Origin: Patescibacteria group bacterium UBA6017
GTDB lineage: Bacteria; Patescibacteriota; Saccharimonadia; UBA4664
DNA: 49,279 bases
Assembly: GCA_002429485.1 (NCBI GenBank)
Contig: DIZX01000012.1
Coordinates: 1,440-50,718, forward strand
Direction: 5' to 3'
Shown here: positions 22,467 through 36,467 of the stretch, piece after piece
Position numbering within the stretch: position 1 is the stretch's first letter
How the letters are laid out: the number at the start of each line of letters is the position of its first letter
Notes under the pieces: generated by a model
What the model saw: only the letters and a program-made list of their open reading frames with translations
Databases searched by the model: none
What the model was told of the DNA's origin: nothing
Program-made: the position numbers and the translations under genes

Positions 22467-22527
22467 CCGCAATTATTGTGCATTTTGACTAATTAAGGCG
22501 GTATATGCATCACATATCTTAAAAAAT

Positions 22528-22556
22528 TTGCCAAAATACGGAAAAACGTGTATAAC
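22528..22556 (+). promoter_or_regulatory. sigma70-like promoter upstream of the first WhiB-like gene
   Basis: TTGCCA (22528-22533), 17-nt spacer, TATAAC (22551-22556). Confidence 0.45.
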
Positions 22557-22615
22557 TACCTCATCTATCAGGTTTGATGGAAGGACTTTTAGACCAAGAG
22601 CTAAGGGGTGCACCA

Positions 22616-22873
22616 ATGCAAGCTGCGCTAGACTTTCTCAGAGGCACTCGAGGTGATTCGACACAATGGCAGGATCAGGCCATTTGTGTCGGAGACGACC
22701 AAGGCGTCTACTTCACCAGAAGTACAGTTCATGCAAAGAAAGTTTGCATGAACTGTCCCGTTCGGCCCGCCTGTCTTGAGGACGCGCTTGAAAGAGACAT
22801 CCGATTTGGCGTCTACGGTGGCCTTACCTGGAGTGAGCGCAAAGCTCTGAAAAAACAACAGCGTGCCGCTTAA
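22616..22873 (+). CDS. WhiB-family (Wbl) Fe-S transcriptional regulator
   Basis: Four Cys residues in the Wbl arrangement (C...C-x2-C-x5-C: ICVG...VCMNCPVRPAC), the FGVYGG turn, and a basic tail SERKALKKQQR. I chose the ATG at 22616 because AAGGGG lies 7 nt upstream; the track ORF begins at 22574. Confidence 0.85.
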   Translation: MQAALDFLRGTRGDSTQWQDQAICVGDDQGVYFTRSTVHAKKVCMNCPVRPACLEDALERDIRFGVYGGLTWSERKALKKQQRAA

Positions 22874-22925
22874 CTAGTTAGCCCGACTGGGCTGTCTAGA
22901 GGAAGACCTTTCAGGGGAGGTTGTT

Positions 22926-23186
22926 ATGGCAGAAGATATTCGAAAGAGCGGCAAATGCACCACCGAGGGTGACCCAGAAGCATTCTTTGTCCCGGGGGCT
23001 GCCCAGGGTCCGAACAAGATTTTCTGCTTTGACTGCCCCGTCATAGCGGAATGTCTTGCCGAAGCACTCGACAACCGAATCGAGTCCGGCATCTGGGGCG
23101 GCATGACCGAAAGGGAGCGTAAAGCGCTACTGAAGCGCCGACCCGGCGTACCGTCCTGGAGGGCTCTGTTTGAGGCGACAGGCTGA
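22926..23186 (+). CDS. WhiB-family (Wbl) Fe-S transcriptional regulator, second paralog
   Basis: KCTTEG...FCFDCPVIAEC (C...C-x2-C-x5-C), SGIWGGMTERERKALLKRR. GGGGAGG RBS upstream. Confidence 0.88.
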   Translation: MAEDIRKSGKCTTEGDPEAFFVPGAAQGPNKIFCFDCPVIAECLAEALDNRIESGIWGGMTERERKALLKRRPGVPSWRALFEATG

Positions 23187-23279
23187 GGGTGGAAGCCGAG
23201 GCAGCAGAACGTCCGGTGCGGCGCAGTCGCGAGCCAGTACTGGCCAGCGCCAGCTAGCCCGCTCGGTATCCGGTCTCAA

Positions 23280-23321
23280 ATGGCCACCTCGGAGATGAGA
23301 AATCAACTCCGAGGTGGCCAT
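23280..23321. other. 15-bp perfect inverted repeat
   Basis: ATGGCCACCTCGGAG (23280-23294), a 12-nt loop, CTCCGAGGTGGCCAT (23307-23321). No T-run follows on either strand. Confidence 0.6.
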
Positions 23322-23386
23322 CGTCATGATTAGGCCCCCGATTTTGCATTTCGCAACAACACCATAAGCGCTATACTTACTACATC

Positions 23387-24382
23387 GTGAACACCCATAA
23401 CGCCCGTACAATTCGCGGCCTAATTATCTTTGCCGTCAGCCTGGGGCTGCTCGGTACCTTTGGCTTCGCCAATTTCGCCCATATCTCGATTGCTGAAGCC
23501 GCCTACGCGACTATTCTTATACTGCTGACCCATTACGATCACTACGGTTTTGCCGATTCTAAGTCTCGTCTGCTCGTAATTATCCTGATTCTATCGAGTT
23601 TGGGCTTGATAGCTTATTTGCTTAAGTGGTTAGCCGAATATATGATGGGCTTAAGTGATAACGTACGTAGGCTCCGCGTGAAATCAAAAGTCGAAAAACT
23701 CAAAGATCATTACATCGTCTGCGGTCTGGGCCGGGTAGGTTCACAAGTCGCCGGCGAAATGCATCACGAAGGTGTGCCATTCGTGGGCGTTGATCGTGAT
23801 GAGGCTAAAGTTGCCGAGGCAAATGAGCGCGGCGAATTGGCGTTAGCACTCGATAGTACGCTCGAAACCGCCCTTACCGAGGTCGGGATCTCCAGAGCGG
23901 CCGGTCTTGTGGCCTGTCTCGGTGAAGACTCCCTCAATTTGTTTGTCGTCCTCGCCGCCCGCGCCATGAACCCCGATCTCTATATCGTCGCTCGCGCTAA
24001 CCGTCCCGAGAACGAGATCAAGCTTAAGCGTGCCGGAGCCGACCGGGTTGCGCTGCCGTATCAGATCGGCGGCTATCACATGGCCTCAATGGCCCTGCGC
24101 CCGAATGTAGTTGATTATATGGACATTATGACCGGCAAGAACGGCCTCACTGAGCTCGAAGTCGAAGAAATGGTCGTTTCCGAAGTCTCGAAGCTGGCCG
24201 GCCGCCGCCTGGGCACCGCCCTGGCCGAAGGGGAAGTGGGGGCCACCGTGATCGCCATCAACGGCGCCGATGGTACCAGCCGTGTCCGCCCGACCGGCAA
24301 GGAGATTATCTACAAGGGTGATCGATTGATAATCCTCGGCTCAAAGCGCGACCTCACCGCCGCCTCGGAGCTCATCAGATGA
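23387..24382 (+). CDS. 2-TM ion channel with RCK (TrkA-N/TrkA-C) domains
   Basis: GTG start. N-terminal two-helix pore-like module, then the Rossmann segment HYIVCGLGRVGSQVAGEM (TrkA-N) and a TrkA-C-like C-terminus (...VVSEVSKLAGRRL...GDRLIILG). Confidence 0.8.
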   Translation: MNTHNARTIRGLIIFAVSLGLLGTFGFANFAHISIAEAAYATILILLTHYDHYGFADSKSRLLVIILILSSLGLIAYLLKWLAEYMMGLSDNVRRLRVKSKVEKLKDHYIVCGLGRVGSQVAGEMHHEGVPFVGVDRDEAKVAEANERGELALALDSTLETALTEVGISRAAGLVACLGEDSLNLFVVLAARAMNPDLYIVARANRPENEIKLKRAGADRVALPYQIGGYHMASMALRPNVVDYMDIMTGKNGLTELEVEEMVVSEVSKLAGRRLGTALAEGEVGATVIAINGADGTSRVRPTGKEIIYKGDRLIILGSKRDLTAASELIR

Positions 24383-25278
24383 CACCTCAATCATTCACGG
24401 CCGAACTAGGAGCCGCCGGTGAGCGGCTCGATGTGTTTCTGGCGGCCGCTTTGCAGCGCCCTCGCAGCCAGGTGCAGCGTTTGGTGCGTACTAACCTAGT
24501 TTCGGTAAACGGCGAGCAAGAGCGCACTAGTTACCAGATGCAGGCGGGCGACGTGGTCCAGATACAGGAACCGCCTGCCCCGGCCGCCAAAGCTGCACCT
24601 CCGGATATGCCGATCATCTATGAAGATGACGATTTGGTGATTATCGATAAACCGGCCGGCATCGCAGTGCACCCCGGCGCCGCGTCGCACGTGACAGCCA
24701 CCGTAGTCGATTTTGCCCGCCCCCGTACCACCGATCAGGACCCCGACCGGCCTGGTATCGTCCACCGGCTCGACCGCGACACCTCCGGAATTCTTATTAT
24801 CGCCAAAAATGAACACGCCAAGGCATTCATGCAGGCTGCCTTCAAGCGCCGCGATGTCCACAAAACCTACGAGCTGTTGGTGGTCGGCCGGATCGATAAG
24901 GAGCAGGCGGTCATCAAACTCCCGCTCGGCCGCGACCCCGCCCACCCGCTCCAGCAGGCCGTAGAAGCCTCCGGCCGCGAAGCCATTACTCCTTACGTGG
25001 CCACGCGATACTACAACGGCTACACTCAGATCCAGGCCAAGCCCGAAACCGGCCGCACCCATCAATTGCGCGTACACTTTGCCGCGCTGGGGCACCCGGT
25101 GGCCGGAGATATCGTCTACGGGCCGCCTAAGCGTCCTATCGGCCTCAAACGGCAGTTTCTGCACGCCAGCACGATTGAGTTCACGGCGCCCTCAGGCAAG
25201 CTCGTGACGCTCGTCAGCCCGCTCCCACCCGATTTGCAGGTTGTGCTGGACCGCCTAGAGGAGGAGTCTGCGGCGTGA
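24379..25278 (+). CDS. rluD: RluA-family 23S rRNA pseudouridine synthase (RluD-like)
   Basis: N-terminal S4 domain. Catalytic motif IVHRLDRDTSGILIIAK; ...TGRTHQLRVHFA..GHP..GD..YG. Confidence 0.9.
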   Translation: MTPQSFTAELGAAGERLDVFLAAALQRPRSQVQRLVRTNLVSVNGEQERTSYQMQAGDVVQIQEPPAPAAKAAPPDMPIIYEDDDLVIIDKPAGIAVHPGAASHVTATVVDFARPRTTDQDPDRPGIVHRLDRDTSGILIIAKNEHAKAFMQAAFKRRDVHKTYELLVVGRIDKEQAVIKLPLGRDPAHPLQQAVEASGREAITPYVATRYYNGYTQIQAKPETGRTHQLRVHFAALGHPVAGDIVYGPPKRPIGLKRQFLHASTIEFTAPSGKLVTLVSPLPPDLQVVLDRLEEESAA

Positions 25279-26078
25279 GCGCGCGCCTGCACCCCAAAAC
25301 CGCCACTCAGGTGGATGCTCTGCGTGAGCACCCGTTCGGTAGTGTGATCTTTCATGGTCCGCGGGGAATTGGTAAGGCCGGGGCAGCCCGTGAGCTCGCC
25401 ACCAGACTCAATTGTCTCGGCGATGAGCCCGCTAAATGCACTAATTGCCGTCAAATTGAGGCCGGCAACTTTCCCGATCTAATTACGGTTGGGCTGCTGG
25501 ACAAGGCCAGCCTCAGCATCGAGCAGGTGAGGGGACTCACCGCCGCCCTCGCCCTGAGGCCGTTTACCGCCGGTTCTGTGCGGGTGGTAATAATCGACCC
25601 GGCCGATCAGCTCACCCCCGAGGCACAAAACGCCTTGCTCAAACTGCTCGAAGAACCGCCGCCCCGCACCCTCGTTATTCTGGTGGCCCAACATCTTGGT
25701 GCGCTGCTTGTTACCGTTCGCTCCCGTTGTCAGGCGATCTTCTTCGTGCGAGCCGATACCGATCCGTCGTCGGCTCAGACCGCCGATTCCCAGGAAGTTG
25801 ACGCCCAGCTCAGCCTAGCCGCCGATGCCGCCGGCGTCGAAGCGCAAACTTTGTTCGATCGGCTATTGCTCGCCGCCCGTCTGGCTAGCACCGGCGCCGA
25901 CCTTGAGCGCTTCGGGGAAGCCTTGCATCGCCGTGTTATTGCCCGCCTCGAGGCCAATGAGCTAGACGCCAGCAGCGCTAATACTTGGCTCAGCGCCCTC
26001 GAGCGCTTTCGTTTGCAGCTTCGCGCCAAAGTGACGGCGCGCGTGGCGCTCGAGCGGCTAATGCTGGAGCTGAGCTAA
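25275..26078 (+). CDS. holB: DNA polymerase III delta-prime subunit
   Basis: GTG start overlapping the rluD stop. FHGPRGIGKAGAA, Zn-module-like C..C..C (CLGDEPAKCTNCRQ), NALLKLLEEPP, SRC. Confidence 0.85.
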   Translation: MSARLHPKTATQVDALREHPFGSVIFHGPRGIGKAGAARELATRLNCLGDEPAKCTNCRQIEAGNFPDLITVGLLDKASLSIEQVRGLTAALALRPFTAGSVRVVIIDPADQLTPEAQNALLKLLEEPPPRTLVILVAQHLGALLVTVRSRCQAIFFVRADTDPSSAQTADSQEVDAQLSLAADAAGVEAQTLFDRLLLAARLASTGADLERFGEALHRRVIARLEANELDASSANTWLSALERFRLQLRAKVTARVALERLMLELS

Positions 26079-26761
26079 TGCTAGAGCTAGTGGTTGTCGC
26101 TGGCTCATGGATGTTATTGCGCCGTCAGTTGTCTGCTCAAGAATATGGTGCCCCCACCACCGTCCTCGCCCCCAAACGCACCAGCGCCCAGTTGGCCCAG
26201 CTCACGGCCTACGCCGATCGGCTATATACCGAACGCAAATGGTTGGCCGCCGAGAAGGCTTATCTGAGCGTACTCAAGCTTGATCATAAAAATGTCACTG
26301 CCTACGCGCACCTCGGAATTATTTTCTCGACCCAAAAGAATATGCCCGACGCCATCGAGTGCTTCGAGATCGCTGCCCAGCTCAAACCATCCGCCCGCGC
26401 CTTCCAAAATCTGGCTTCGGCCTTCTACGACAACCGCAATTACATCAAGTCGATCGCCGCCTACGAGAAGTCGATCATGTTTGAGCCCCACGCCCAGCGC
26501 TACGTCGGGCTCGGCAAGGCCAACCTGAAGCTTCACAACATTCCAGCGGCCGTTACCGCCTTCGAGCACGCCGTGAATCTCGATTCTACCAAGCCGATAC
26601 TCGCGCTGCTGGCTGACGCCTACGATCAGACCGGGAAAAAGAATGAGGCCAATGCAGTCTATGCCCGCATTCATCAGCTCGATCCCACCGACCCCCTAGC
26701 AGCGCGCCGCATCGGTATCCACCTCCCGGATAGCACGCTACCGCTTGATAGCGCATTCTGA
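26078..26761 (+). CDS. TPR-repeat protein with N-terminal membrane anchor
   Basis: I moved the start to ATG 26078 (TAATG overlap with holB). Several 34-aa TPR-like units (A...Y..AL.L.P....A...LG..Y). Confidence 0.75.
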   Translation: MLELVVVAGSWMLLRRQLSAQEYGAPTTVLAPKRTSAQLAQLTAYADRLYTERKWLAAEKAYLSVLKLDHKNVTAYAHLGIIFSTQKNMPDAIECFEIAAQLKPSARAFQNLASAFYDNRNYIKSIAAYEKSIMFEPHAQRYVGLGKANLKLHNIPAAVTAFEHAVNLDSTKPILALLADAYDQTGKKNEANAVYARIHQLDPTDPLAARRIGIHLPDSTLPLDSAF

Positions 26762-28222: not shown

Positions 28223-28298
28223 AGGGGTGTAGCTCAGTTGGTAGAGCATCGGTCTCCAAAACCGAGTGTCGTAGGTTCGAGTCCTGCCACCCCTGCCA
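28223..28298 (+). tRNA. tRNA-Trp (anticodon CCA), CCA encoded
   Basis: Acceptor AGGGGTG/CACCCCT, anticodon stem TCGGT/ACCGA with loop CTCCAAA, T arm GTAGG-TTCGAGT-CCTGC, discriminator G. Confidence 0.92.
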
Positions 28299-28410: not shown

Positions 28411-28694
28411 ATTACCGAATTTTCTACACATTCTCACATGCAACAACATCTTCACTGACATCTTCGGAAAGCATTGCCTTATATATTGTGGTCGTCTACG
28501 ATATAGACACAACATAACAGTCATTCACCGAAGTTACCGGGCAAGTAGGGCGTAATTCCCTCGCTGTCGCGCAACTGTAAAGTCAGAAAACCGGTCGGGA
28601 ATGTTTTATCCATGTACTCTTCGCCGTAAAGAGTGACGGAAGGCTTCAAACCCCTCTGCGCTAGAACGACCGCTAGTACAAAGAGGGGATTTGT

Positions 28695-31067
28695 TTGTCC
28701 AGAGAAACCGAATCTGATTCAAGATTACAGGAACGCGAGGGAACTGCTAACCTCGATACTGATGTTGAGGCCAATTTTGTTGGTGATCCTGATGACCCCG
28801 AGTCTCAGGAGTCGGTAGGAAGCATCCCTGGGGAAGAGTTTGACGTGGACTCCACTGGATCGCTATTGGACTTCGAAAGCCTGCCAACCGAAACAGAACA
28901 GGGCGAGGTTTCGTTCTCGCAACGCTACGTTTTGCGCGATGGAGGGGCCTATCCGATCGATGCCAGCCAAGAAGATGGTACCAACCCCGACGTACCAATG
29001 AGCCAAGGCTTAGAGGGGGTACAGTTAGAGGAGCACCTAGCGGCCCTTGAGGCTGTCAGTGTGGGGGGATCACCTACTACTGAGATTCGGGGCCTCGAGG
29101 GGCACACCGAAACTACCGAGCTATTCATTGTCTCGACCTACGTCAAGGTAGGTGAAACCGCCGAAGGGGAACCAATTATCGAAATTACCGGCTCGTTCGA
29201 ACATCGCGAGATCGAAGTATTAGATAAAGAAGTCGACGAGGCGGAAGACGCTGGTGACGACTATACCGATGAAGACCAAATGCTGAGCGTTGACGGATCT
29301 AGTGACTTCACCGATTACGACGGACATCCTGAGGTTTACGGCGATGACGGCGACGACGAATACGCCGACGAACCGCCAGCCTGGTCGCCCTATGCCGCTC
29401 CTCAGCCTGATCTTGTCAGGATTGAGCCTATGGTAGCTTCCTTGCCAGCCGAGACTCCCATACTATCGGTTCAGGAGAATCAACCCACGGTCGAATCAGT
29501 AGCCCCGTCAAAGCCAACGATAGCTACGAAACCGCAAGTTACTGGCTTAAGTAGCGCCCTGCGGGAACCACAAACTCCAAATCCGCAATTCACTGCTGAG
29601 CGGAGGGATCAAAAAATCGGCGCTGATAATTCCGCTAGCCCCGTGCAAAATCCCGACAATCCAACCGGAGGCGGAAAATTTAACATGGAGCCAACAGTGA
29701 TGATAGCCCCGTTTGCAACTAGGCCGCTATCAAATGAAACAACTACATTTACGCCCGCTGAGCAGCCTCGAGTCTTGCAGGGCGAACCCCACCCACCCTC
29801 GACATCCAACGAGGCGGCTGGCACGATTGATCATCACGAGACTCGGAGTGTGTATTCATCAGTCGCACCGAGCCATGAGAACGTCCCCGGCCAATCATTA
29901 GTTGAGCCGAGCTCCTCCACCTCTACGAACCTCAGGCCAATCGAGTCGACTACTCCCCGACCAGTGAAAGTAGTGCAGACGGAATCACGTTCAGTTATAG
30001 CCAGTTCAGAATCTGATAAATCAGCTCCGAGTCAGCAATTTGAATCTCACCAAAGCTTGCATGATCTTGTGGCTGAAGCAGTCGTCGGCAGTTTGGATCA
30101 AGCCCAGAGCGCACCGCAGATTGACGCTGGCACCGCTGAGCAACCCCTTCAGCTTGAAACTCAAGATGAAGTTTTCGATGAGCCAGCCACCCATCAAGAT
30201 GTTCTAGATACACCTGTTTTGGTCCATACCAGCCTACCTCTTGCGCCACCCTCCGATTTGGTGCAGCAGATATTTAATCGCGAGGTTGGTGGGGTAGAAT
30301 CTGCTCGAACTCTAATAGTTGAACCTATAGTTACCAATGAGGGTATTTTTGCGGTGGAGCACACTCCAAATCAAGCAGCTGTCGAAAGAGTACTCATAAA
30401 GTCAAACGAAGTCGCGCAACTGCGCCCAGTGTCCTTGGAGTCCGCTCATACCAACCCGCCCGTTGCCCCGGAAGCTTCAGTAGCAAAGCCTGTCCGTGAA
30501 GTTCGATCCACTGTGCGCCACGAACAAGCTGTGCCAGTACCCGCTTCGCCTCGAGCCCAATTGGTTGAACCAACCCCAGCATTCACGCACACCGAGCCAT
30601 CGCGCACCGTTGAGCCCTCACGTAGGGTCGCAGCCGAGCCCAGAGTTGAAGCCGTCGAATCACAACCTGCCCTAGTGGCAAAGCCGATATCAAGACACAC
30701 ACCGGAACTCTCTAATACGTTAGCGCCACATGTAATCAATGAACCCAATCACAAGTCTGAGGCCAAGCCAACATCCGAGCCTGACCGAGCAGTTGCTCCC
30801 TCCCCCAATGCTCCAGCTAAGACAATGGAACAACCAGTAACCTCTTGGCTGGAAGACTTCACCGTCCAGCCTACTCATGAGTCTTCTGACGACGGGCGCG
30901 CCGCCATTATTTGGCCCAAACTTTCAACCTCCGAAGCGGTAGCGCCCGCAAGAGCACAGGGTGGGTATAGTCAATTAACTGATGAAGACCTGGAGGTCTC
31001 CTTTGAGGTTGGTCAGCCGACCGGGCGTAAACGCCCGGCGCACAGGACTAGGACGGCAGCTGTATGA
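28695..31067 (+). CDS. 790-aa acidic, Pro/Ser/Thr/Glu/Val-rich low-complexity protein (predicted largely disordered)
   Basis: TTG start 6 nt after AAGAGGGGA. No signal peptide or TM segment. The D/E-rich N-terminal third has runs such as DDGDDEYADE. The long PSTQ-rich remainder shows no recognisable domain. Confidence 0.7.
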   Translation: MSRETESDSRLQEREGTANLDTDVEANFVGDPDDPESQESVGSIPGEEFDVDSTGSLLDFESLPTETEQGEVSFSQRYVLRDGGAYPIDASQEDGTNPDVPMSQGLEGVQLEEHLAALEAVSVGGSPTTEIRGLEGHTETTELFIVSTYVKVGETAEGEPIIEITGSFEHREIEVLDKEVDEAEDAGDDYTDEDQMLSVDGSSDFTDYDGHPEVYGDDGDDEYADEPPAWSPYAAPQPDLVRIEPMVASLPAETPILSVQENQPTVESVAPSKPTIATKPQVTGLSSALREPQTPNPQFTAERRDQKIGADNSASPVQNPDNPTGGGKFNMEPTVMIAPFATRPLSNETTTFTPAEQPRVLQGEPHPPSTSNEAAGTIDHHETRSVYSSVAPSHENVPGQSLVEPSSSTSTNLRPIESTTPRPVKVVQTESRSVIASSESDKSAPSQQFESHQSLHDLVAEAVVGSLDQAQSAPQIDAGTAEQPLQLETQDEVFDEPATHQDVLDTPVLVHTSLPLAPPSDLVQQIFNREVGGVESARTLIVEPIVTNEGIFAVEHTPNQAAVERVLIKSNEVAQLRPVSLESAHTNPPVAPEASVAKPVREVRSTVRHEQAVPVPASPRAQLVEPTPAFTHTEPSRTVEPSRRVAAEPRVEAVESQPALVAKPISRHTPELSNTLAPHVINEPNHKSEAKPTSEPDRAVAPSPNAPAKTMEQPVTSWLEDFTVQPTHESSDDGRAAIIWPKLSTSEAVAPARAQGGYSQLTDEDLEVSFEVGQPTGRKRPAHRTRTAAV

Positions 31068-32803
31068 GCGCACCAATCTCTATCAAATTTCGGGATTTAG
31101 CTTCAAGTGCCCGAGCCGGTAAGCTTTCGGATGTTGTCGAGCGCGATGCCGAGCTCAAACGGCTAGTTCGGATTCTCTTGCGGCCAACCAGCCACCATGG
31201 GGTTATCGTCGCCGAACCTGGCATGGGAAAAACCAGTCTCGTCCAGGCGCTAGCTCTACGCCTGGTTCAGGGCAAAATCCCGCAGCTTGAGCCGAAAATC
31301 TATAGCCTCGACACGGAGCAAATTATGGGCCTGCTTGTCGGCGGGGATAGCCTCAGGAATTGTTTAGATGCCCTGCGCCAAGCCGTCGCCCAACTTCCGG
31401 CCGCCATTATTGTCATCGAGGACATTCAGCTGCTGGCGACCGACGACCCCGGTCGACTCGAGCTCACCCTTGGGCTAATCCAGGCCGTAGCCTCTCACGA
31501 CGGTATTCGCCTCATCACCACCACCACAGCAACCGCCTACCAACGCATATTTCAAGGTGATTACGTTTTTAGCCGAACCTTCGACGCCCTGGAGCTCACC
31601 GAACCCACCACCGATGCAATTATTCACATGGTCGAGCAGGCGGTACCCCGGCTTGAACGTCAAAACCATCAAACAATCTCGGTGGGTGCCGTCGAAAAGG
31701 CCGTATATTATGGCGGACGTTTCGGCCATGGCCGATCTTTGCCCGATGCCGCCATTCGCTTGCTCGAAGGAGCCGTCATCAAGACTGGGTTGGACGGCCG
31801 AGACTCGGTTGAGCCAACTGACATCAAAGATATTGTGTCTGAACGTGAGCGTATGCCACTGGCGGATCTCGAAACCGACCAAAAAGATCGCTTAGCTGAT
31901 CTCGAAGATAAACTCCTACAGGAGGTAGTCGGTCAGGATGCCGCCATTCGTACCATCGCTCGTACCATCGCCAAGGCACAGCTCGGTCTCGGTGACGCCT
32001 CTCGTCCGCGTGGCTCATTTCTCCTACTTGGCCCATCCGGCGTCGGTAAAACTGAAACCGCCAAGGTGCTCGCAAGCCACGTTTTTTCCGGCCCCAATGC
32101 GCTCATCCGCCTTGATATGAGCGAGTACGGCGAAGCCCACAGTGCCGTGAGACTTATCGGCTCTCCCCCAGGCTATATCGGCTACGAGGAGGGGGGTCAA
32201 CTCACCGGAGCGGTCGCCCGCGAGCCGTACTCGCTCGTCCTGCTGGATGAAATCGAAAAGGCCCACACCAAACTCTTTGACCTCTTTCTCCAACTCCTCG
32301 ATGACGGGCGTCTCACCGACTCTGCCGGTAAAACAGTCGACTTTACTCAGACGCTGGTGATGGCTACTTCAAACACGGGCAGCGCCGAAATCGCAGAGGC
32401 GGCTGCCAGAGGCATTAACGTAAACGGTCATGATTTCGTCCAAAATACTCTCATGCCAATTCTCATGCGCAACTTCCGCCCCGAGTTTCTCAATCGTTTC
32501 GACGCTATACTCATTTATCAACCCCTGGGTGAGATTCAGCTAGTCGCCCTCGCTCAACGCGAGCTCGGGCGACTAGCCGGACGTCTCGAGCGGCTCGGTA
32601 TCACCTTCGACATTTCCGATCAGCATATGGCCGATCTCCTCCGCCCTCATTACAATCCACTCTTTGGTGCTCGACCAGTGAAGCGATTGATCGCCAATCA
32701 CTTTGAAACTCCCATTGCTGACATGATTATAAAACGCCAACTCGAAGGGCCGCTCACTATCACCGGCGCAGAGCCCTGGCTAAGACAAGGGGCAACAAGA
32801 TGA
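31064..32803 (+). CDS. compact Clp/Hsp100-family double AAA+ ATPase (no N-domain, no M-domain)
   Basis: First module: VERDAELKRLVRILLR...AEPGMGKTSLV, with VIEDIQ where FIDELH is expected. Second module is canonical: VVGQDAAI, GPSGVGKTETAK, LVLLDEIEKAH, GYIGYEEGG, ATSN, GARPVKRLI. ATGA overlap with the upstream gene. Confidence 0.88.
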   Translation: MSAPISIKFRDLASSARAGKLSDVVERDAELKRLVRILLRPTSHHGVIVAEPGMGKTSLVQALALRLVQGKIPQLEPKIYSLDTEQIMGLLVGGDSLRNCLDALRQAVAQLPAAIIVIEDIQLLATDDPGRLELTLGLIQAVASHDGIRLITTTTATAYQRIFQGDYVFSRTFDALELTEPTTDAIIHMVEQAVPRLERQNHQTISVGAVEKAVYYGGRFGHGRSLPDAAIRLLEGAVIKTGLDGRDSVEPTDIKDIVSERERMPLADLETDQKDRLADLEDKLLQEVVGQDAAIRTIARTIAKAQLGLGDASRPRGSFLLLGPSGVGKTETAKVLASHVFSGPNALIRLDMSEYGEAHSAVRLIGSPPGYIGYEEGGQLTGAVAREPYSLVLLDEIEKAHTKLFDLFLQLLDDGRLTDSAGKTVDFTQTLVMATSNTGSAEIAEAAARGINVNGHDFVQNTLMPILMRNFRPEFLNRFDAILIYQPLGEIQLVALAQRELGRLAGRLERLGITFDISDQHMADLLRPHYNPLFGARPVKRLIANHFETPIADMIIKRQLEGPLTITGAEPWLRQGATR

Positions 32804-33219
32804 ATCATCAACTAGGCGAATTACAGCACCAAGTCGAAATTTCTCGTCCCGAGGAATTGGTTCTTGTGAGCACAGAAGGTGTCACGGTCTCTATAGTTAG
32901 CGAATCTATGGAAACTCAGCCACCGAGAGACGAAATCCCTGAAGGTACTTCCGTAAAAACAGAGGCCTCGCAGCAGGAATTTGAGAGTGATTCTCTCCCA
33001 GTCACACAATCAGATTGGATGGTGCCCGCGGCCCGTCCGGAAATCCTGGATTGGCCGTTCCTGGATATCCAGAGCCAAGCTAATGACGCCGTAGTCGCCG
33101 CGATCGAAGATGAGTCTGTCGGCGAATTAGCCGCGCCTAATGAACAACCGATTCCAAGGCGTGCAACAACCCGACCCGGGTCCTATGAGCTGGCTGCCAG
33201 CGGGCGGATTGCAGCATGA
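32800..33219 (+). CDS. 139-aa acidic hypothetical protein
   Basis: ATGA overlaps at both ends. E/D/S/Q-rich with no recognisable domain. Confidence 0.6.
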   Translation: MNHQLGELQHQVEISRPEELVLVSTEGVTVSIVSESMETQPPRDEIPEGTSVKTEASQQEFESDSLPVTQSDWMVPAARPEILDWPFLDIQSQANDAVVAAIEDESVGELAAPNEQPIPRRATTRPGSYELAASGRIAA

Positions 33220-35390
33220 AGCTCACCGGACAATATACCTTCATTCGCCTCAAACCTTCGCCCGAGACAATAACCGAGGGAGCGCTGGCGAAGCGCCACT
33301 TTGAGGCCACCAAGTCGCTCATGACCGCCTTTGCCGGATTACTCAACTCTAATCGAACGGCCGCAATTAGTCTCGAATTGGCAGCCAAAGAACAGAGCAT
33401 AAACTTCATTATCGGCTCCCCGGAAGAATGGGTCGAAGAAGTCACTCATCACGTTTATGCCGCCTTACCGGGAAGCGAGTTGGAAGTGCTCGACGAATGG
33501 ACTGTTTTTGATACCCTGGGAGATATAGCTGGGGCAAGTGTTCAGTTTAGCCCGCCAGAAGGGGAGCTGCGCTCAGCTGAGTTTGCTGGCAGTGATCCGC
33601 TCCAACCACTGCTAGAGATATTGCATAGCTTGCCCACCGGTAGCCGTCTGTCCCTTCAGCTCCTTCTGACGGGTGCTTTCGCCAAGGGCACACTCGGGGG
33701 AGCTCTCGCAGGTGCATTTCAAGATGCGGTAACTAGCGGCCTGCGCCAGGTCCTTATCGGACCACCGTCGGACCAAACTGCCACCGACAAACCAAGAAAC
33801 AAGCTCGATGATGCCCCCCTGCTCGCCAACCTGCGCTTAATTGCCCTAGCAAAATCAGAGCCCGAAGCTACGGACATCATCCGACGCGCCACGAGCGCCT
33901 ATCACGGGCTCACCCTGCCGGGCAAAACTAAACTGCGCTACCAAACGCCCCGACATCTCGACCCTTGGCTCAAAACAGCTCTTCTTCGTCAGTCCGATCC
34001 AAAAACCTCCTTCCGGCTCACACCAATGGAAGCCACGAACCTATACCATACGCCGCTCAATGTGCGTTCGTTCCCGAAGTTAGTTTCCATGGAGACAACG
34101 CGCCTGCCCATACCTCAAAACCTCTCCACCCAAGGCATCGTCATAGGCACCGGCGCGCATCGTAGTGGGGGGCAGCCAATTCACCTAGCCCCCGAAGACC
34201 GACTTCGCCACACCTACCTCATAGGCCAAACTGGCACCGGTAAATCCACTCTATTTCAGAACGCCATCCTGCAGGATATGGAAAACGGCGACGGCTGTTG
34301 CTTCATCGATCCGCACGGTGAAGTCATCGATTGGCTGCTGCCCCGGATTCCCGCCAACCGCGCTGCCGACGTTGTCCTGTTCGACCCTGGCGACCCTTCT
34401 GCCATCCTTGGCCTCAACCTTCTCGAGTGGCGTACTCCCCACGAGCGCGATCTGATAATTCAGGAGCTGATAGCGCTGTTCTATAAACTTTTCGACCCCG
34501 CCCGCACGGGCATTATTGGACCTCAATTCGAGCATTGGCTTCGCAACGCTGCGCTGACCATTACCGAACCAGCCGTCCGAGGTACGATTGTTGATATTCC
34601 GCGTCTCTTCACGGATAAAGCCTTTGCGAAGGCTGCCGTTGAACGATCTTCGCACGTCGCCGTCAAAGATTTTTGGAATAATCAAATGGCTGCCACCGCC
34701 GATTTCCACAAGTCCGAGATGCTCAACTATTTCACCTCCAAGTTCGGAAGCTTCCTCGGCAATTCCGTGATGTATCAAATTCTTTCGCAGCGCTCTAGCG
34801 CCTTCGACCTGCGTACCATCATGGACCGCCGCAAAATCCTGCTCGTCAACCTCTCGAAGGGCCGACTTGGCAGCCTCAATGCCCAACTACTGGGTACCCT
34901 CATCGTGACCAAAATTCAGATGGCCGCCATGAGCCGGGCCGACGTCCCGGCCGAAAACCGGCCACCATTCTATGTCTATATCGACGAGTTTCAGAATGTC
35001 GTTACCGATTCGTTCGCCGCTATGCTCTCAGAAGTCCGCAAGTATGGCGTCGGGCTGCACCTGGCGCATCAATACGTCGATCAACTCCCCGACAATATCA
35101 AGCAAGCCGTATTTGGCAATATTGGTACCATCATGGCTTACCGCCTTGGTTCTACTGACGCCAAGTGGCTCAGTGGCCATTTTGCCCCCCTCAGCATCGA
35201 TGACCTCACCAATATCCCGCCCTACCATTACCATATGAGAACCCTTGCCGACGGCCAACTTACCACTCCCTTTACGGTGAAAGCTCCGTATATTGAAACA
35301 ACCCCCCGCCCAGATGTTGAGCAAGCCATCCGCAGCCGTGTTAGAGACTTCGTGGAAAGCACTCATGCCGTTACGAATGCCCCAAAATGA
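33216..35390 (+). CDS. FtsK/HerA-superfamily P-loop ATPase (HerA/DUF87- or TraD/VirD4-like), soluble, with ~330-aa unknown N-terminal domain
   Basis: Walker A LIGQTGTGKST, then CCFIDPHGE, Walker B FYVYIDEFQNV, and VRKYGVGLHLAHQYVDQL...GNIGTIMAYRL, which is typical of the HerA/TraG-D_C type. No TM helices seen. Confidence 0.8.
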   Translation: MKLTGQYTFIRLKPSPETITEGALAKRHFEATKSLMTAFAGLLNSNRTAAISLELAAKEQSINFIIGSPEEWVEEVTHHVYAALPGSELEVLDEWTVFDTLGDIAGASVQFSPPEGELRSAEFAGSDPLQPLLEILHSLPTGSRLSLQLLLTGAFAKGTLGGALAGAFQDAVTSGLRQVLIGPPSDQTATDKPRNKLDDAPLLANLRLIALAKSEPEATDIIRRATSAYHGLTLPGKTKLRYQTPRHLDPWLKTALLRQSDPKTSFRLTPMEATNLYHTPLNVRSFPKLVSMETTRLPIPQNLSTQGIVIGTGAHRSGGQPIHLAPEDRLRHTYLIGQTGTGKSTLFQNAILQDMENGDGCCFIDPHGEVIDWLLPRIPANRAADVVLFDPGDPSAILGLNLLEWRTPHERDLIIQELIALFYKLFDPARTGIIGPQFEHWLRNAALTITEPAVRGTIVDIPRLFTDKAFAKAAVERSSHVAVKDFWNNQMAATADFHKSEMLNYFTSKFGSFLGNSVMYQILSQRSSAFDLRTIMDRRKILLVNLSKGRLGSLNAQLLGTLIVTKIQMAAMSRADVPAENRPPFYVYIDEFQNVVTDSFAAMLSEVRKYGVGLHLAHQYVDQLPDNIKQAVFGNIGTIMAYRLGSTDAKWLSGHFAPLSIDDLTNIPPYHYHMRTLADGQLTTPFTVKAPYIETTPRPDVEQAIRSRVRDFVESTHAVTNAPK

Positions 35391-35441: not shown

Positions 35442-36467
35442 ATGCAGCCTTTACTCTCAATTATTGTTATCGGTCTCAACCACAAAGTTGCACCCTTAGA
35501 AGTACGAGAAAAGGTCGTTGGCAGCGCTCCTTTTAAGCGAGCGGAACAAGCCTTCTACCCGAGCCTGATAAGCGAATTCGTCGGACTATCCACCTGCAAC
35601 CGTACTGAACTTTATGTCGTAACCGCCGCTCCTGACGAGGTTACGCGAGGGCTAGGTCAACTCTTTGGCTATGACTACGCCTACGTTTTAGCAGATGAGG
35701 AAGCAACCAACCATTTGTATAGCGTAGTATCGGGGCTTGATTCTATGATTCTTGGCGAATACGACATTGTCGCACAGGTAAAACAGGCATACTTTGCGGC
35801 GGCTCAAGCAAAGACTGTCGGACCGGTACTCCATCAGCTCTTTCAGCGAGCAATTCGGGCCAGCAAAGTGGTTAGGTCTTCAACCAATATTGGCACAGGC
35901 ATTACGTCACTAGCCCGGGCTGCCGTAGATCAAGCTAAAGTCAAAGTTGAAAATCTCAAAGACCAACCAGTCCTCATACTTGGAGCCGGAAGTATGGCGG
36001 AAAAAGTGGGAAAATACTTAGCAAAGGAAGGGGTGCGGGATATTACCTTTGCCAACCGAACCTATAGCCGCGCTGAGAAGCTGGCTTCCGAATATAAGGC
36101 TAATGCCATCCCGCTCGATGAGCTAGAAGCTGGCCTACTGGCAAGTACTGTCGTCATCTGCGCAACGGCTGCCCCTGACCAGGTGATAACACATAAAATG
36201 CTACAAGATACTATGACTGTAAGGCCGCTCCACTCGCTGCACATAATCGACCTTGCTGTACCCCGAGATGTTGAACCGAGTGCTGCAAGTATCGCTGGGG
36301 TACATTTGGATAATGTCGATACCCTCCAAAATCACCTCGATGATAATAAGCAAGAGAGAATTAAGGCGGTAGCCATGGCCCAATCGCTTATAGAACTTGA
36401 GTCACAGAAATTTTGGGAATGGAATGAGTCGCGAAATGCGAGGACTCAAATAAAAATCGTCGTCTAG
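35442..36467 (+). CDS. hemA: glutamyl-tRNA reductase-like protein, C-terminally short
   Basis: VIGLNHKVAPLEVREK, catalytic-Cys motif LSTCNRTELYV, SGLDSMILGEYDIVAQVKQAY, NAD-binding ILGAGSMAEKVGKYL, DLAVPRDVEP. It is 341 aa; E. coli HemA, recalled from memory, is about 418 aa. Confidence 0.85.
   Translation: MQPLLSIIVIGLNHKVAPLEVREKVVGSAPFKRAEQAFYPSLISEFVGLSTCNRTELYVVTAAPDEVTRGLGQLFGYDYAYVLADEEATNHLYSVVSGLDSMILGEYDIVAQVKQAYFAAAQAKTVGPVLHQLFQRAIRASKVVRSSTNIGTGITSLARAAVDQAKVKVENLKDQPVLILGAGSMAEKVGKYLAKEGVRDITFANRTYSRAEKLASEYKANAIPLDELEAGLLASTVVICATAAPDQVITHKMLQDTMTVRPLHSLHIIDLAVPRDVEPSAASIAGVHLDNVDTLQNHLDDNKQERIKAVAMAQSLIELESQKFWEWNESRNARTQIKIVV

What the first reader, a model, noticed from the sequence alone, without database searches (positions are those of the whole stretch)
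28695..35390. Translationally coupled 4-gene operon: giant acidic disordered protein, compact Clp-like AAA+, acidic protein, soluble HerA/TraD-like ATPase
What the sequence shows:
- Four ORFs are joined by ATGA overlaps at 31064, 32800 and 33216, so they form a single translational unit.
- The unit sits immediately after the tRNA-Trp junction, behind about 400 bp of AT-rich non-coding DNA.
- The products are a 790-aa low-complexity acidic/PST-rich protein, a 579-aa Hsp100-type unfoldase lacking N- and M-domains, a 139-aa acidic protein, and a 724-aa FtsK/HerA-superfamily ATPase (GQTGTGKST, FIDPHGE, YIDEFQ, RKYGVGLHLAHQ) with an unassigned N-terminal domain of about 330 aa and no TM segments.

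Established knowledge: HerA/TraD/VirD4-type hexamers translocate DNA or protein substrates, and Hsp100 hexamers thread polypeptides.

Inference: pairing two different ring translocases with two disordered acidic proteins does not match any secretion, conjugation or defence system I recognise. There is no VirB4, relaxase, NurA, ClpP or sheath gene nearby. Candidate roles are a substrate-unfolding and export module for the disordered protein (surface fibre or host-attachment factor), a minimal DNA-transfer module of an integrated element, or a defence system.
Basis: partly seen in the sequence, partly recalled or inferred. Interest (0 to 1): 0.8.

Follow-up and report, generated by a model that had tools for sequence, protein, structure and literature searches.

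The report
B12-riboswitch operon pairing two ring ATPases
The unit looks like an undescribed, B12-controlled machine that handles a long acidic disordered protein.

Summary
Four ORFs, A 28695-31067, B 31064-32803, C 32800-33219 and D 33216-35390, are joined by ATGA overlaps. B is a Clp/Hsp100 ATPase without N-domain, M-domain or ClpP loop. Its D1 ring is catalytically degenerate and its D2 ring is fully conserved. D is a soluble ATPase with the fold of the coupling protein TrwB/VirD4.

Two new results change the picture:
- The order A-B-C-D recurs in 65 other loci from many Patescibacteria classes. A is always large, acidic and free of membrane segments, and usually ends in Ala-Ala.
- The "non-coding" leader holds a cobalamin riboswitch (28525-28601, 53.9 bits). 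A cobalamin-clan hit lies directly upstream of A in 46 of 53 testable modules, with strong covariation.

The module is chromosomal and core-like, not an integrated element or defence island. I found no paper describing it. One study notes unexplained orphan coupling-protein homologues in 96% of Patescibacteria genomes.

Best guess (confidence 0.3): under B12 scarcity B unfolds A from its C-terminal tail, and C and D deliver it for export. The function is unproven. Novelty: the system has no described counterpart. Interest 0.8.

The parts
28525..28601 (+). Cobalamin riboswitch aptamer (Rfam RF01689, AdoCbl-II) in the 5' leader of gene A.
   Evidence: It scores 53.9 bits against a gathering score of 36.5, E 3.5e-11, and matches the full model length. 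Cobalamin-clan hits at or above gathering lie in the same place in 18 other module loci. With nhmmer and a covariance model, 46 of 53 testable modules have a hit, always on the same strand just upstream of A. Covariation score is 0.349 against 0.116 in shuffles, 0 of 500.
28651..28688 (+). Hairpin that pairs an anti-SD (CCCCTCT, 28651-28657) with the Shine-Dalgarno of A (AGAGGGG, 28682-28688). It is the likely expression platform.
   Evidence: Read from the sequence. The hairpin is present in both the MFE and the centroid fold of the leader. Its link to ligand binding is inferred, not shown.
28695..31067 (+). Gene A: 790-aa acidic, mostly disordered protein. It starts at a TTG 5 nt after the SD.
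   Evidence: ORF. No Pfam or NCBIfam hit. pI 4.4, net charge -83. The gene at the same position in 48 other loci encodes 400-900 aa with D+E 13-29% and no TM segment. It is only 21-23% identical to relatives whose B and D are 59-73% identical.
28902..29249 (+). Small N-terminal globular domain of A (about aa 70-185).
   Evidence: A profile built from other A proteins finds the domain at the same position in 19 of them. It also hits L005_A, a close relative of the window, at E 1.3e-4. The window sequence aligns colinearly. No structure model was possible.
30975..31064 (+). C-terminal tail of A: DLEVSFEV, then an Arg-rich stretch (GRKRPAHRTR), then TAAV-COOH.
   Evidence: Tails are conserved across the family: '...LNGITLRRAA' in most classes, and 'phi-x-phi-x-F-D/E + Arg-rich + T-A/T-A/V' in the window's subclade. 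32 of 55 A proteins end in AA against 17 of 1184 other ORFs (Fisher p 4e-36). 44 of 55 end in A.
31064..32803 (+). Gene B: Clp/Hsp100-type double AAA+ ATPase, 579 aa. D1 spans about aa 1-245 and D2 about aa 273-562.
   Evidence: Pfam AAA_2 3.9e-55, ClpB_D2-small, AAA_lid_9. The best solved relative is ClpB (1qvr), which aligns in two stretches that skip the M-domain. B is colinear with ClpA 176-723. Across 64 orthologues D2 keeps Walker A and B, the GYVGY pore loop, sensor 1, the Arg finger and sensor 2. D1 has DD/DN/ED in place of DE, no pore-loop Tyr and Arg at the finger position in only 13 of 64 sequences. No IGF/IGL loop is present.
32800..33219 (+). Gene C: 139-aa acidic protein ending in AA.
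   Evidence: ORF, with no family hits. A small gene of 75-142 aa lies between B and D in 57 of 66 modules. In most classes it is a ~100-aa protein with the C-terminal motif YSFVLDPxYFEQKFL. That form is modelled as a disordered N-terminus plus a helical hairpin and has no significant PDB match. The window's subclade has an acidic, unalignable version.
33216..35390 (+). Gene D: soluble TrwB/VirD4-like (FtsK-HerA superfamily) ATPase, 724 aa. The N-terminal domain spans about aa 1-305, the ATPase about aa 306-700, and an all-alpha insertion about aa 405-538.
   Evidence: Pfam TrwB_AAD_bind 24.8 bits (cut-off 20.5) and TraG-D_C 22.2 bits (cut-off 22). The AlphaFold model has pLDDT 87.9. Foldseek matches TrwB deltaN70 at E 4.5e-15 with TM 0.65 on the target, and TrwK/VirB4 over the full length at E 2.6e-16. 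Walker A (G337-K343) and Walker B (D590, E591) are invariant in 60 homologues. No TM segment.

Best explanation
This is a cobalamin-controlled operon conserved across Patescibacteria that processes, and probably exports, the long acidic disordered protein A.

Proposed steps:
1. When B12 is plentiful, the leader aptamer binds it. The hairpin that pairs the Shine-Dalgarno of A stays closed, and A is not translated.
2. When B12 is scarce, A is translated. The ATGA overlaps carry ribosomes on into B, C and D.
3. A is the client. Its conserved C-terminal tail (short beta-strand, basic residues, Ala-Ala-COOH) is engaged by the B hexamer.
4. In B only the D2 ring is a working motor, and D1 is a nucleotide-binding scaffold. 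B has no ClpP-docking loop, so it yields an unfolded chain rather than peptides.
5. The small protein C acts as an adaptor. D, a soluble hexamer with the fold of the conjugative coupling protein TrwB/VirD4, receives the polyanionic chain and hands it to an envelope channel. The most likely channel is the Patescibacteria type IV secretion system, which lacks both a relaxase and a coupling protein of its own.

Shown: gene order, translational coupling, domain content, the state of the motifs, the riboswitch, and the conserved tail.

Inferred: the direction of the switch (OFF with ligand), that A is the client of B and D, that C is an adaptor, and any export.
For: Unit and conservation:
- A-B-C-D occurs in 66 loci, with gaps mostly under 25 nt or 4-nt overlaps.

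Riboswitch:
- Rfam hits at or above gathering in the window and 18 other loci.
- 46 of 53 testable modules have a hit. In about 1.2 Mb of loci, every nhmmer and covariance-model hit lies just upstream of A on its strand.
- Covariation exceeds all 500 shuffles and all slid controls.
- The SD is paired in a hairpin.
- The same riboswitch class precedes B12-binding and uptake-type genes (DUF4430, transcobalamin-like) in other Patescibacteria loci, so it behaves as a normal B12 sensor in this phylum.

A as client:
- Conserved C-terminal tail with strong Ala-Ala enrichment.
- A tmRNA tag in one of these organisms ends in ...PALA. From established knowledge, Ala-Ala-COOH tails are degrons for ClpX and ClpA.
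- Acidic composition is conserved while sequence is not.

B as stand-alone unfoldase:
- Intact D2, degenerate D1, no ClpP loop, no M-domain.

D as coupling-type ATPase:
- TrwB fold including the all-alpha insertion, and invariant Walker motifs.

Literature:
- 5,713 VirD4-type homologues in 2,918 of 3,035 Patescibacteria genomes, only 148 near virB4, function called open (PMC12102498).
- The Southlakia T4SS cluster lacks recognisable coupling and relaxase proteins (PMC10633639).

From memory, not tested: small accessory proteins sit next to coupling proteins (TrwA-TrwB, TraM-TraD). T4SS substrates carry basic C-terminal signals and must be unfolded.
Against: - D has no membrane anchor, which canonical coupling proteins have.
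- No T4SS gene lies within 10 kb in any module locus.
- Coupling-protein homologues are present in more genomes (2,918) than VirB4 (2,417).
- A's N-terminal domain and tail are conserved across classes that presumably have very different hosts. That fits binding to internal partners better than a host-specific effector.
- No signal of export was or could be tested. No complex prediction was possible.
- Why B12 should control such a system is not explained by any known logic. A B12-scavenging or host-directed role is only a guess.
- The oral Saccharibacteria with Tn-seq data do not have this arrangement, so no genetic data apply.
- All loci were collected through similarity to D. Conservation was therefore measured from D's side only.
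Confidence: 0.3

Rival explanations
1. A cytoplasmic B12-starvation response with no export. A is a polyanionic scaffold or nucleic-acid mimic. Its assembly state or occupancy of DNA- or RNA-binding proteins is set by the unfoldase B and the ring ATPase D. One possible role is to pause replication or division when the B12-dependent ribonucleotide reductase lacks its cofactor.
For: - All four products lack signal peptides and TM segments.
- A's N-domain and tail are conserved phylum-wide, as expected for internal partners.
- The module sits among housekeeping genes.
- Coupling-protein homologues are more widespread than VirB4.
- B12 control fits a physiological response.
Against: - There is no precedent for a TrwB-fold ATPase in such a role.
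- Nothing links A to nucleic-acid-binding proteins.
- The presence of a B12-dependent reductase in these genomes was not checked.
Confidence: 0.25
2. A B12-sparing route to deoxynucleotides. D is a DNA translocase, as its relatives are. The module takes up or processes DNA for salvage when the B12-dependent reductase cannot work. This would be analogous to B12 riboswitches that repress B12-independent reductase genes in other bacteria.
For: - D has the fold of DNA-pumping ATPases: TrwB, VirB4 and HerA.
- Some other cobalamin-riboswitch loci in Patescibacteria include nucleotide-metabolism genes. Thymidylate kinase and PRPP synthetase were recognised by eye from their sequences, and a cytidylyltransferase-like gene was confirmed by Pfam.
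- B12 control of B12-independent alternatives is established knowledge, recalled from memory.
Against: - This gives no role to a giant acidic protein or to a protein unfoldase.
- No nuclease, ComEC or DNA-binding domain is present in the module.
- D is soluble.
Confidence: 0.12
3. Direct B12 trafficking. The unfoldase strips cobalamin from very tight carrier proteins, or loads it onto enzymes, with A or C as carrier or adaptor.
For: - Riboswitch-controlled operons most often act on the ligand itself.
- Other riboswitch targets in the phylum are B12 binders.
Against: - No B12-binding domain or motif was found in A-D.
- The one conserved His in A's N-domain is lost in the window's subclade.
- There is no precedent for this.
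Confidence: 0.08
4. An anti-phage defence system or part of a mobile element inserted at tRNA-Trp.
For: - Partial PADLOC matches: B to PDC-M37B and DolB, D to mad8 and HerA.
- The module lies next to a tRNA gene.
Against: - The matches cover only generic ATPase cores.
- The module is near-universal and chromosomal, flanked by housekeeping genes that differ between lineages, and has no integrase or repeats.
- B and D identities fall from the close Saccharimonadia relatives to the other classes. This was not tested with a tree.
- A metabolite riboswitch is not a known control for defence systems.
Confidence: 0.03

Closest known systems
Type IV coupling proteins (TrwB of R388, VirD4, TraD) with their small accessory proteins (TrwA, TraM, PcfF)
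   Same: D has the TrwB nucleotide-binding fold with an all-alpha insertion and intact Walker motifs, and it reaches the Pfam cut-offs for TrwB_AAD_bind and TraG-D_C. A ~100-aa gene lies directly upstream of D, as trwA does for trwB (gene order recalled from memory). The putative client has a basic C-terminal tail.
   Different: D has no N-terminal membrane anchor, and the module has no relaxase, oriT or T4SS genes nearby. The client is an acidic protein, not a relaxase-DNA complex. C has no detectable similarity to TrwA or TraM. D falls far below the NCBIfam equivalog cut-offs (42 against 366 bits). No conjugation system includes a Clp-type unfoldase or a riboswitch.
Class I Clp/Hsp100 unfoldases (ClpB, ClpA, ClpC, ClpV)
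   Same: B has two AAA+ modules. Its D2 shows a strong match to ClpB D2 (296 bits) with every catalytic and pore-loop motif kept, plus the D2-small domain.
   Different: B has no N-domain and no M-domain, so it has no DnaK coupling as ClpB does. It has no IGF/IGL loop, so it has no ClpP partner as ClpA and ClpC do. Its D1 lacks the catalytic Glu, the pore Tyr and the Arg finger. It scores 445 bits against a cut-off of 1232 for the ClpB equivalog. It is encoded with a coupling-type ATPase.
C-terminal Ala-Ala degrons (ssrA tag, Ala tails) read by ClpX and ClpA
   Same: Most A proteins end in a hydrophobic or basic residue followed by Ala-Ala-COOH. A tmRNA tag from one of these organisms ends in ...PALA.
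   Different: The tail is genetically encoded on a dedicated 500-900-aa protein next to its presumed unfoldase. That unfoldase cannot dock ClpP, so degradation is not the expected outcome. Recognition was not tested.
Type VII secretion (EccA AAA+ ATPase plus EccC FtsK-like ATPase, with low-complexity PE/PPE substrates)
   Same: The logic is the same: an AAA+ ATPase and an FtsK-HerA-superfamily ATPase are encoded with low-complexity substrates that are recognised through C-terminal signals (from memory).
   Different: There is no homology beyond the superfamily level. B is Clp-type, not CbbX-type. D is single-domain and soluble, not a triple-domain membrane protein. No WXG100, EccB, EccD or MycP genes are present.
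Cobalamin riboswitch regulons (btuB, B12 transporters, metE, nrd genes)
   Same: The leader is a cobalamin-clan aptamer followed by an SD-sequestering hairpin. In the same phylum the class also precedes B12-binding and uptake-type genes.
   Different: No described B12 regulon contains a Clp-type unfoldase, a coupling-type ATPase or a giant acidic disordered protein. Paper searches for the riboswitch in Patescibacteria found nothing.

Membership tests
Clp/Hsp100 class I (ClpA/ClpB/ClpC) | Two tandem AAA+ modules with a D2-small domain | tested here: met
   AAA_2 3.9e-55, AAA_lid_9, ClpB_D2-small. Colinear with ClpA 176-723.
Clp/Hsp100 class I (ClpA/ClpB/ClpC) | N-terminal Clp_N substrate or adaptor domain | tested here: not met
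   The alignment to ClpA and ClpB starts at their residue ~160-176. There is no Clp_N hit.
ClpB/Hsp104 disaggregases | Coiled-coil M-domain inserted in D1, and the equivalog score | tested here: not met
   ClpB aligns in two stretches that skip roughly residues 447-520. The score is 444.8 bits against a cut-off of 1232.
ClpA/ClpC/ClpX protease partners | IGF/IGL tripeptide loop for ClpP docking | tested here: not met
   The corresponding region reads AARGINVNGHDF. No IG[FL] is conserved in 64 orthologues.
Clp/Hsp100 class I | Catalytically competent D1 (Walker B DE, pore-loop Tyr, Arg finger) | tested here: not met
   In 64 orthologues D1 shows DD, DN or ED at Walker B, no Tyr in the pore loop, and Arg at the finger in 13 of 64. 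D2 is fully conserved.
Type IV coupling proteins (VirD4/TrwB/TraD) | RecA-like nucleotide-binding domain with Walker A and B, plus an all-alpha domain inserted in it | tested here: met
   Model pLDDT 87.9, with helices 408-537 inserted between strands 386-389 and 541-545. Foldseek to TrwB at E 4.5e-15, TM 0.65. Invariant GxxGxGK and DE. This rests on a predicted, not solved, structure.
Type IV coupling proteins (VirD4/TrwB/TraD) | N-terminal transmembrane anchor | tested here: not met
   No hydrophobic segment at the N-terminus of D, with one exception among the 65 other module-linked homologues (L058). The unlinked 820-1000-aa paralogues mostly have one. The test was a hydropathy scan only.
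Type IV coupling proteins (VirD4/TrwB/TraD) | Genetic linkage to a relaxase or a VirB4-type T4SS | tested here: not met
   None within 10 kb in 66 module loci. Literature: 148 of 5,713 homologues lie near virB4.
Type IV coupling proteins (VirD4/TrwB/TraD) | Curated family scores | tested here: inconclusive
   The Pfam domain models are just above cut-off (24.8 against 20.5, and 22.2 against 22). All NCBIfam TraD and VirD4 models are far below theirs (42 against 366).
HerA-NurA type helicases | HAS-barrel N-domain and an adjacent NurA nuclease | tested here: not met
   There is no NurA gene. Foldseek ranks HerA below TrwB and with high rmsd. DUF87 is below its cut-off.
Cobalamin riboswitches (Rfam clan CL00101) | Score at or above the curated gathering threshold, with the consensus fold supported by covariation | tested here: met
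   53.9 bits against 36.5 over the full model. 18 further loci are at or above gathering. 14 of 23 pairs show double changes, and the covariation score exceeds all 500 shuffles and all slid controls.
Cobalamin riboswitches (Rfam clan CL00101) | Binds a corrinoid and switches expression | not testable with these tools
   This needs in-line probing or ITC, and reporter assays.
Known anti-phage defence systems (PADLOC) | A full set of a system's signature proteins | tested here: not met
   Only single partial ATPase-core matches: PDC-M37B, DolB, mad8 and HerA. A and C have no hits.

The most novel reading that the evidence does not exclude
The module is the missing substrate-delivery arm of the Patescibacteria type IV secretion system. 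Under B12 starvation the cell unfolds and exports a polyanionic, DNA-like protein through a machine descended from conjugation. The protein would either capture cobalamin or act on the host cell to obtain it. This would give the orphan coupling proteins found in 96% of these genomes a function. It would name the first T4SS substrate in the phylum and tie epibiotic parasitism to vitamin sensing.
Probability: 0.2. Interest if true: 0.92.

Novelty: categorically new. Interest (0 to 1): 0.8.

Why it matters
- **Open question.** Patescibacteria make up a large share of bacterial diversity, yet most of their conserved genes have no known role. A 2025 survey found coupling-protein homologues in nearly every genome, almost never beside the secretion system, and left their function open.
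- **What this adds.** One class of these homologues is locked into a conserved four-gene operon with a Clp-type unfoldase and a fast-evolving acidic disordered protein. The whole unit sits behind a vitamin-B12 riboswitch.
- **What becomes testable.** The work supplies a ligand (B12), a candidate client with a defined recognition tail, and two motors with clear active-site predictions.
- **Natural regulatory element.** The riboswitch is a native ligand-responsive element in a phylum where inducible expression tools are wanted (PMC11665869).
- **If export is confirmed.** It would be a new kind of protein-translocation pathway built from conjugation and chaperone parts.

Tried and rejected
- **Integrated element at tRNA-Trp.** Rejected. 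There is no composition break, the neighbours are housekeeping genes, and the module lies in different chromosomal contexts in other lineages.
- **Defence system.** PADLOC gives only partial ATPase-core matches.
- **Tn-seq data from Southlakia epibionticum.** Its coupling-protein homologues (SEML1_0142 and SEML1_0293) are of the long type. Its Clp-like SEML1_0700 is not adjacent to either. The data therefore do not apply to this module.
- **Profile search with A's N-domain.** It returned only 5 proteins, probably because acidic low-complexity words swamp the word filter. No usable alignment resulted, so no structure model of A was made.
- **Link between A's N-domain and another family.** I tested it against the unknown ~370-490-aa family that follows cobalamin riboswitches in other Saccharimonadia. 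hmmsearch was sub-threshold (E 0.05-0.2), and hhalign, run with a possibly unsuitable setting, reported no alignment (probability 0.05). The link is dropped.
- **Fold of typical C.** It is a helical hairpin with no significant PDB match. The best hit, at E = 2, was IcmQ, which means nothing at that level.
- **Kissing-loop contact.** I looked by eye for one between the aptamer loop and the SD hairpin and found none that convinced me.
- **B12 ligand in A.** A conserved His in A's N-domain is not conserved in the window's subclade.
- **Genome-wide pattern scan.** It returned other B12-regulated loci but no further A-B-C-D modules, so it gives no frequency estimate.
- **Co-occurrence with virB4 or nrdJ.** This could not be tested, because only +/-10 kb around each match can be read.


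Full report
**1. The observation**

The ORF list shows four same-strand ORFs at the stated coordinates: A 28695-31067 (790 aa, TTG start), B 31064-32803 (579 aa), C 32800-33219 (139 aa) and D 33216-35390 (724 aa). Each junction reads ATGA. tRNA-Trp lies at 28223-28298. Independent gene calls on three public copies of the same genome give the same four genes in two copies. The third copy has C and D split into shorter calls. The copies are a JGI metagenome, GCA_002413465.1 and an SRA assembly.

- A has pI 4.4 and net charge -83, with no hydrophobic segment and no family hit.
- C has pI 4.2 and no hits.
- GC content and skew run smoothly through the region.

**2. The two ATPases**

B matches AAA_2 (3.9e-55), ClpB_D2-small and AAA_lid_9. 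Against solved structures it aligns best with ClpB, in two stretches that skip the M-domain. It is colinear with ClpA residues 176-723, so it has neither an N-domain nor an M-domain. It stays far below every NCBIfam equivalog cut-off.

In an alignment of 64 orthologues:
- The D2 module keeps every functional motif: GPSGVGKTE, the GYVGY pore loop, LLDEIEKAH, TSN, EFxNRFD and GARPVKR.
- D1 keeps only the Walker A motif. Its Walker B reads DD, DN or ED, the pore-loop tyrosine is absent, and an arginine finger is present in 13 of 64 sequences.
- No IGF/IGL ClpP-docking loop exists.

B is therefore a stand-alone threading motor driven by D2.

D scores just above the Pfam cut-offs for TrwB_AAD_bind and TraG-D_C. 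An AlphaFold model built on 60 homologues has mean pLDDT 87.9. Foldseek matches the C-terminal ~400 residues to the coupling protein TrwB (E 4.5e-15, TM 0.65 on the target). The full length matches VirB4/TrwK (E 2.6e-16, poor superposition). HerA and Cag-beta rank lower. The model has an all-alpha insertion (about residues 405-538) inside the nucleotide-binding domain, as TrwB has. The Walker A and B residues are invariant. A hydropathy scan finds no membrane segment.

**3. Conservation**

A scan of one genome per species with D returned 80 loci. Their record titles name Patescibacteria of many classes: Saccharimonadia, Doudna-, Nomura-, Kaiser-, Magasanikiibacteria, Paceibacterota and others. 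A few MAGs are labelled Gammaproteobacteria, and I could not verify those labels.

In 65 of these loci, plus the window, a B homologue lies directly upstream of the D homologue. The full pattern is:
- a large ORF (mostly 400-900 aa);
- B (about 553 aa);
- a small ORF (75-142 aa, seen in 57 of 66 modules);
- D.

Gaps are mostly under 25 nt or are 4-nt overlaps. In most classes D is only 414-493 aa and begins at the Walker A region. The window and its eight close relatives (L001-L008) carry an extra N-terminal ~300 aa.

The remaining loci hold a different paralogue class of 820-1000 aa. Most of these have an N-terminal hydrophobic segment, they are often in tandem, and they lie next to secDF, recognised by eye from the sequences. 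The window's D aligns with them over its full length at 38% identity. Precomputed annotation gives their N-domain as PF26449.

Flanking genes differ between lineages and are housekeeping genes. Two caveats apply. Genes in the loci were called with a simple longest-ORF rule, so some start codons are too far upstream. All loci were also found through D.

**4. The large acidic protein A and the small protein C**

All 49 A proteins of 400 aa or more lack hydrophobic segments. They have D+E of 13-29%. Their sequences are not conserved: the window's A is 21-23% identical to relatives whose B and D are 59-73% identical. Three features are conserved.

- **N-terminal motif and domain.** Many start with MPTETDxFxDEE, followed by a ~120-aa domain. 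A profile finds the domain in 19 proteins, and more weakly at the same position in others. These include L005_A of the window's subclade at E 1.3e-4. The window aligns colinearly at residues ~70-185.
- **Short C-terminal motifs.** ILxRALGIP and RYSPPQND occur near the C-terminus in many classes.
- **The extreme C-terminus.** Most classes end in ...LNGITLRRAA or a similar sequence. The window's subclade has a beta-strand-like DLxIxF[DE], an Arg-rich stretch and T-A/T-A/V. 32 of 55 A proteins end in AA, against 17 of 1184 other ORFs (p 4e-36). 44 of 55 end in A.

The tmRNA tag of one of these organisms ends in PALA.

Typical C proteins share the C-terminal motif YSFVLDPxYFEQKFL. They have no Pfam family and are named only 'hypothetical' in public sources. 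They are modelled as a disordered N-terminus plus a helical hairpin, with no significant PDB match. In the window's subclade C is acidic (net charge -9 to -21), cannot be aligned with the typical form, and often also ends in AA.

In that one subclade three changes coincide: A's tail is Arg-rich, C is acidic, and D has the extra N-domain. This is consistent with co-evolution of interacting parts, which is an inference.

**5. The riboswitch**

An Rfam scan of the region found an AdoCbl-II cobalamin riboswitch aptamer at 28525-28601. It scores 53.9 bits against a gathering score of 36.5 and matches the full model. It ends 93 nt before A's start codon.

Downstream, CCCCTCT (28651-28657) pairs with the Shine-Dalgarno AGAGGGG (28682-28688) in both the MFE and the centroid folds.

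Support from the other loci:
- Cobalamin-clan hits (RF01689, RF01482 or RF00174) at or above gathering lie directly upstream of A in 18 other module loci.
- An nhmmer profile gave 39 hits in about 1.2 Mb, all on A's strand and all just upstream of A. A covariance model gave 30 hits with the same property.
- Together, 46 of 53 modules with enough upstream sequence have the element.
- On the 30-sequence alignment, 14 of 23 pairs show double changes. The covariation score is 0.349, against 0.116 in shuffles (0 of 500 reach it) and 0.07-0.09 in slid controls.

A pattern scan for the aptamer core also returned Patescibacteria loci where the riboswitch precedes other genes. These include DUF4430 and transcobalamin-like proteins, a DUF6580 membrane protein, and an unknown Zn-ribbon family followed by a cytidylyltransferase-like gene. 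The class therefore behaves as an ordinary B12 sensor in this phylum. A-B-C-D is one of its targets.

**6. Literature**

- Quinonero-Coronel et al. 2025 (PMC12102498) found 5,713 VirD4-type homologues in 2,918 of 3,035 Patescibacteria genomes. Only 148 lie near virB4, and VirB4 occurs in 2,417 genomes. [quoted passage not shown]
- Wang et al. 2023 (PMC10633639) note that the essential T4SS cluster of Southlakia lacks recognisable coupling and relaxase proteins. Their annotation table shows long coupling-type proteins and a Clp-like ATPase that are not adjacent, so their Tn-seq data do not bear on this module.
- Searches combining cobalamin riboswitch, Patescibacteria or CPR, T4CP and ClpB found no description of this operon or its riboswitch.

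**7. Interpretation**

What is shown:
- a phylum-wide, translationally coupled unit under a cobalamin riboswitch;
- an unfoldase that cannot feed a protease;
- a soluble ATPase with the coupling-protein fold;
- a polyanionic disordered protein with a conserved C-terminal tail of a kind that Clp motors read in other systems.

My best explanation is that A is the client. B engages its tail and unfolds it. C and D then pass it on, most likely to the T4SS, which lacks a coupling protein and a relaxase. The system would be switched on when B12 is scarce.

I hold this at about 0.3. The reasons for caution are:
- D has no membrane anchor.
- There is no linkage to T4SS genes.
- The homologues are more widespread than VirB4.
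- Export was not tested.
- The logic that connects B12 to such a system is a guess.

Rival readings, in order of weight:
- a cytoplasmic B12-starvation response (0.25);
- DNA salvage as a B12-sparing route (0.12);
- direct B12 trafficking (0.08);
- a defence system or mobile element (0.03).

**8. Verdict**

The components belong to known superfamilies, but none passes the membership tests of a characterised family, and the assembled system has no described counterpart. I rate it categorically new at the system level. If the export model proves right, it would instead count as a new variant of T4SS substrate coupling. Interest is 0.8.

Noticed in passing
window 35442-36467 (+): A glutamyl-tRNA reductase-like gene (GlutR_N plus Shikimate_DH, 341 aa) starts 52 nt after D. 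It encodes the first enzyme of tetrapyrrole synthesis, which is odd in a Saccharimonadia genome and odd next to a B12-controlled operon. It is followed by ApbE and an RnfD/NQR-like NAD-binding fusion. None of the related loci has this neighbour.
   Followed up: partly
L094 1654-3828, L143 5274-7430, L084 4543-7083, L146 1848-2869 and others: In other Patescibacteria, cobalamin riboswitches precede an unknown ~280-490-aa protein family. The family ends in a Zn-ribbon (e.g. ...CKKGHWNKRPRNKLIPKCKTCG) and has no Pfam hit. In different loci it is followed by a cytidylyltransferase-like gene or by genes that look like thymidylate kinase and PRPP synthetase. This may be a second uncharacterised B12-regulated function.
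   Followed up: partly
L100 714-3189, L134 1577-4758, L091 1048-2145: The cobalamin riboswitch is followed by secreted DUF4430 proteins, large transcobalamin-like proteins (Cobalamin_bind plus a squalene-cyclase-like repeat) and a DUF6580 membrane protein. This is probably the B12 capture and uptake set of these organisms.
   Followed up: partly
L009-L015, L017, L018, L035, L044, L079: A second class of coupling-type ATPases (820-1000 aa, most with an N-terminal hydrophobic segment; PF26449 in the precomputed annotation of related proteins) occurs without B. They are often two in tandem and lie next to divergently oriented secD/secF, recognised by eye. The window's D shares its N-terminal domain with this class.
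   Followed up: partly
L022, L024, L025, L027, L030, L036, L052, L065, L067, L070 (gene just upstream of the riboswitch and A): A ~160-175-aa protein (my cluster c4, e.g. ...KWKMIIFDIPENKRAVRDYLRTKLKQLGFKRWQNSIWITP) recurs immediately upstream of the module in one group of lineages. By eye it looks like a PaaX/Cas2-like regulator. This was not tested.
   Followed up: no
L002 15501-15599 and L007 18403-18513: SAM riboswitches (RF00162) lie a few kb downstream of the module in two close relatives. I did not look at the genes they control.
   Followed up: no
window 21591-26761 region (as called in L201/L202): Two adjacent WhiB-family genes and a TrkA-like gene lie upstream, before rluD-like, holB and a TPR protein. 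This is ordinary context, recorded for completeness.
   Followed up: no
L020, L026, L033, L054, L058, L075: These module-bearing contigs come from MAGs whose titles say 'uncultured Gammaproteobacteria'. One contig is 914 kb. The module and its neighbours look like those of Patescibacteria, so the labels are probably wrong. I could not check this.
   Followed up: no
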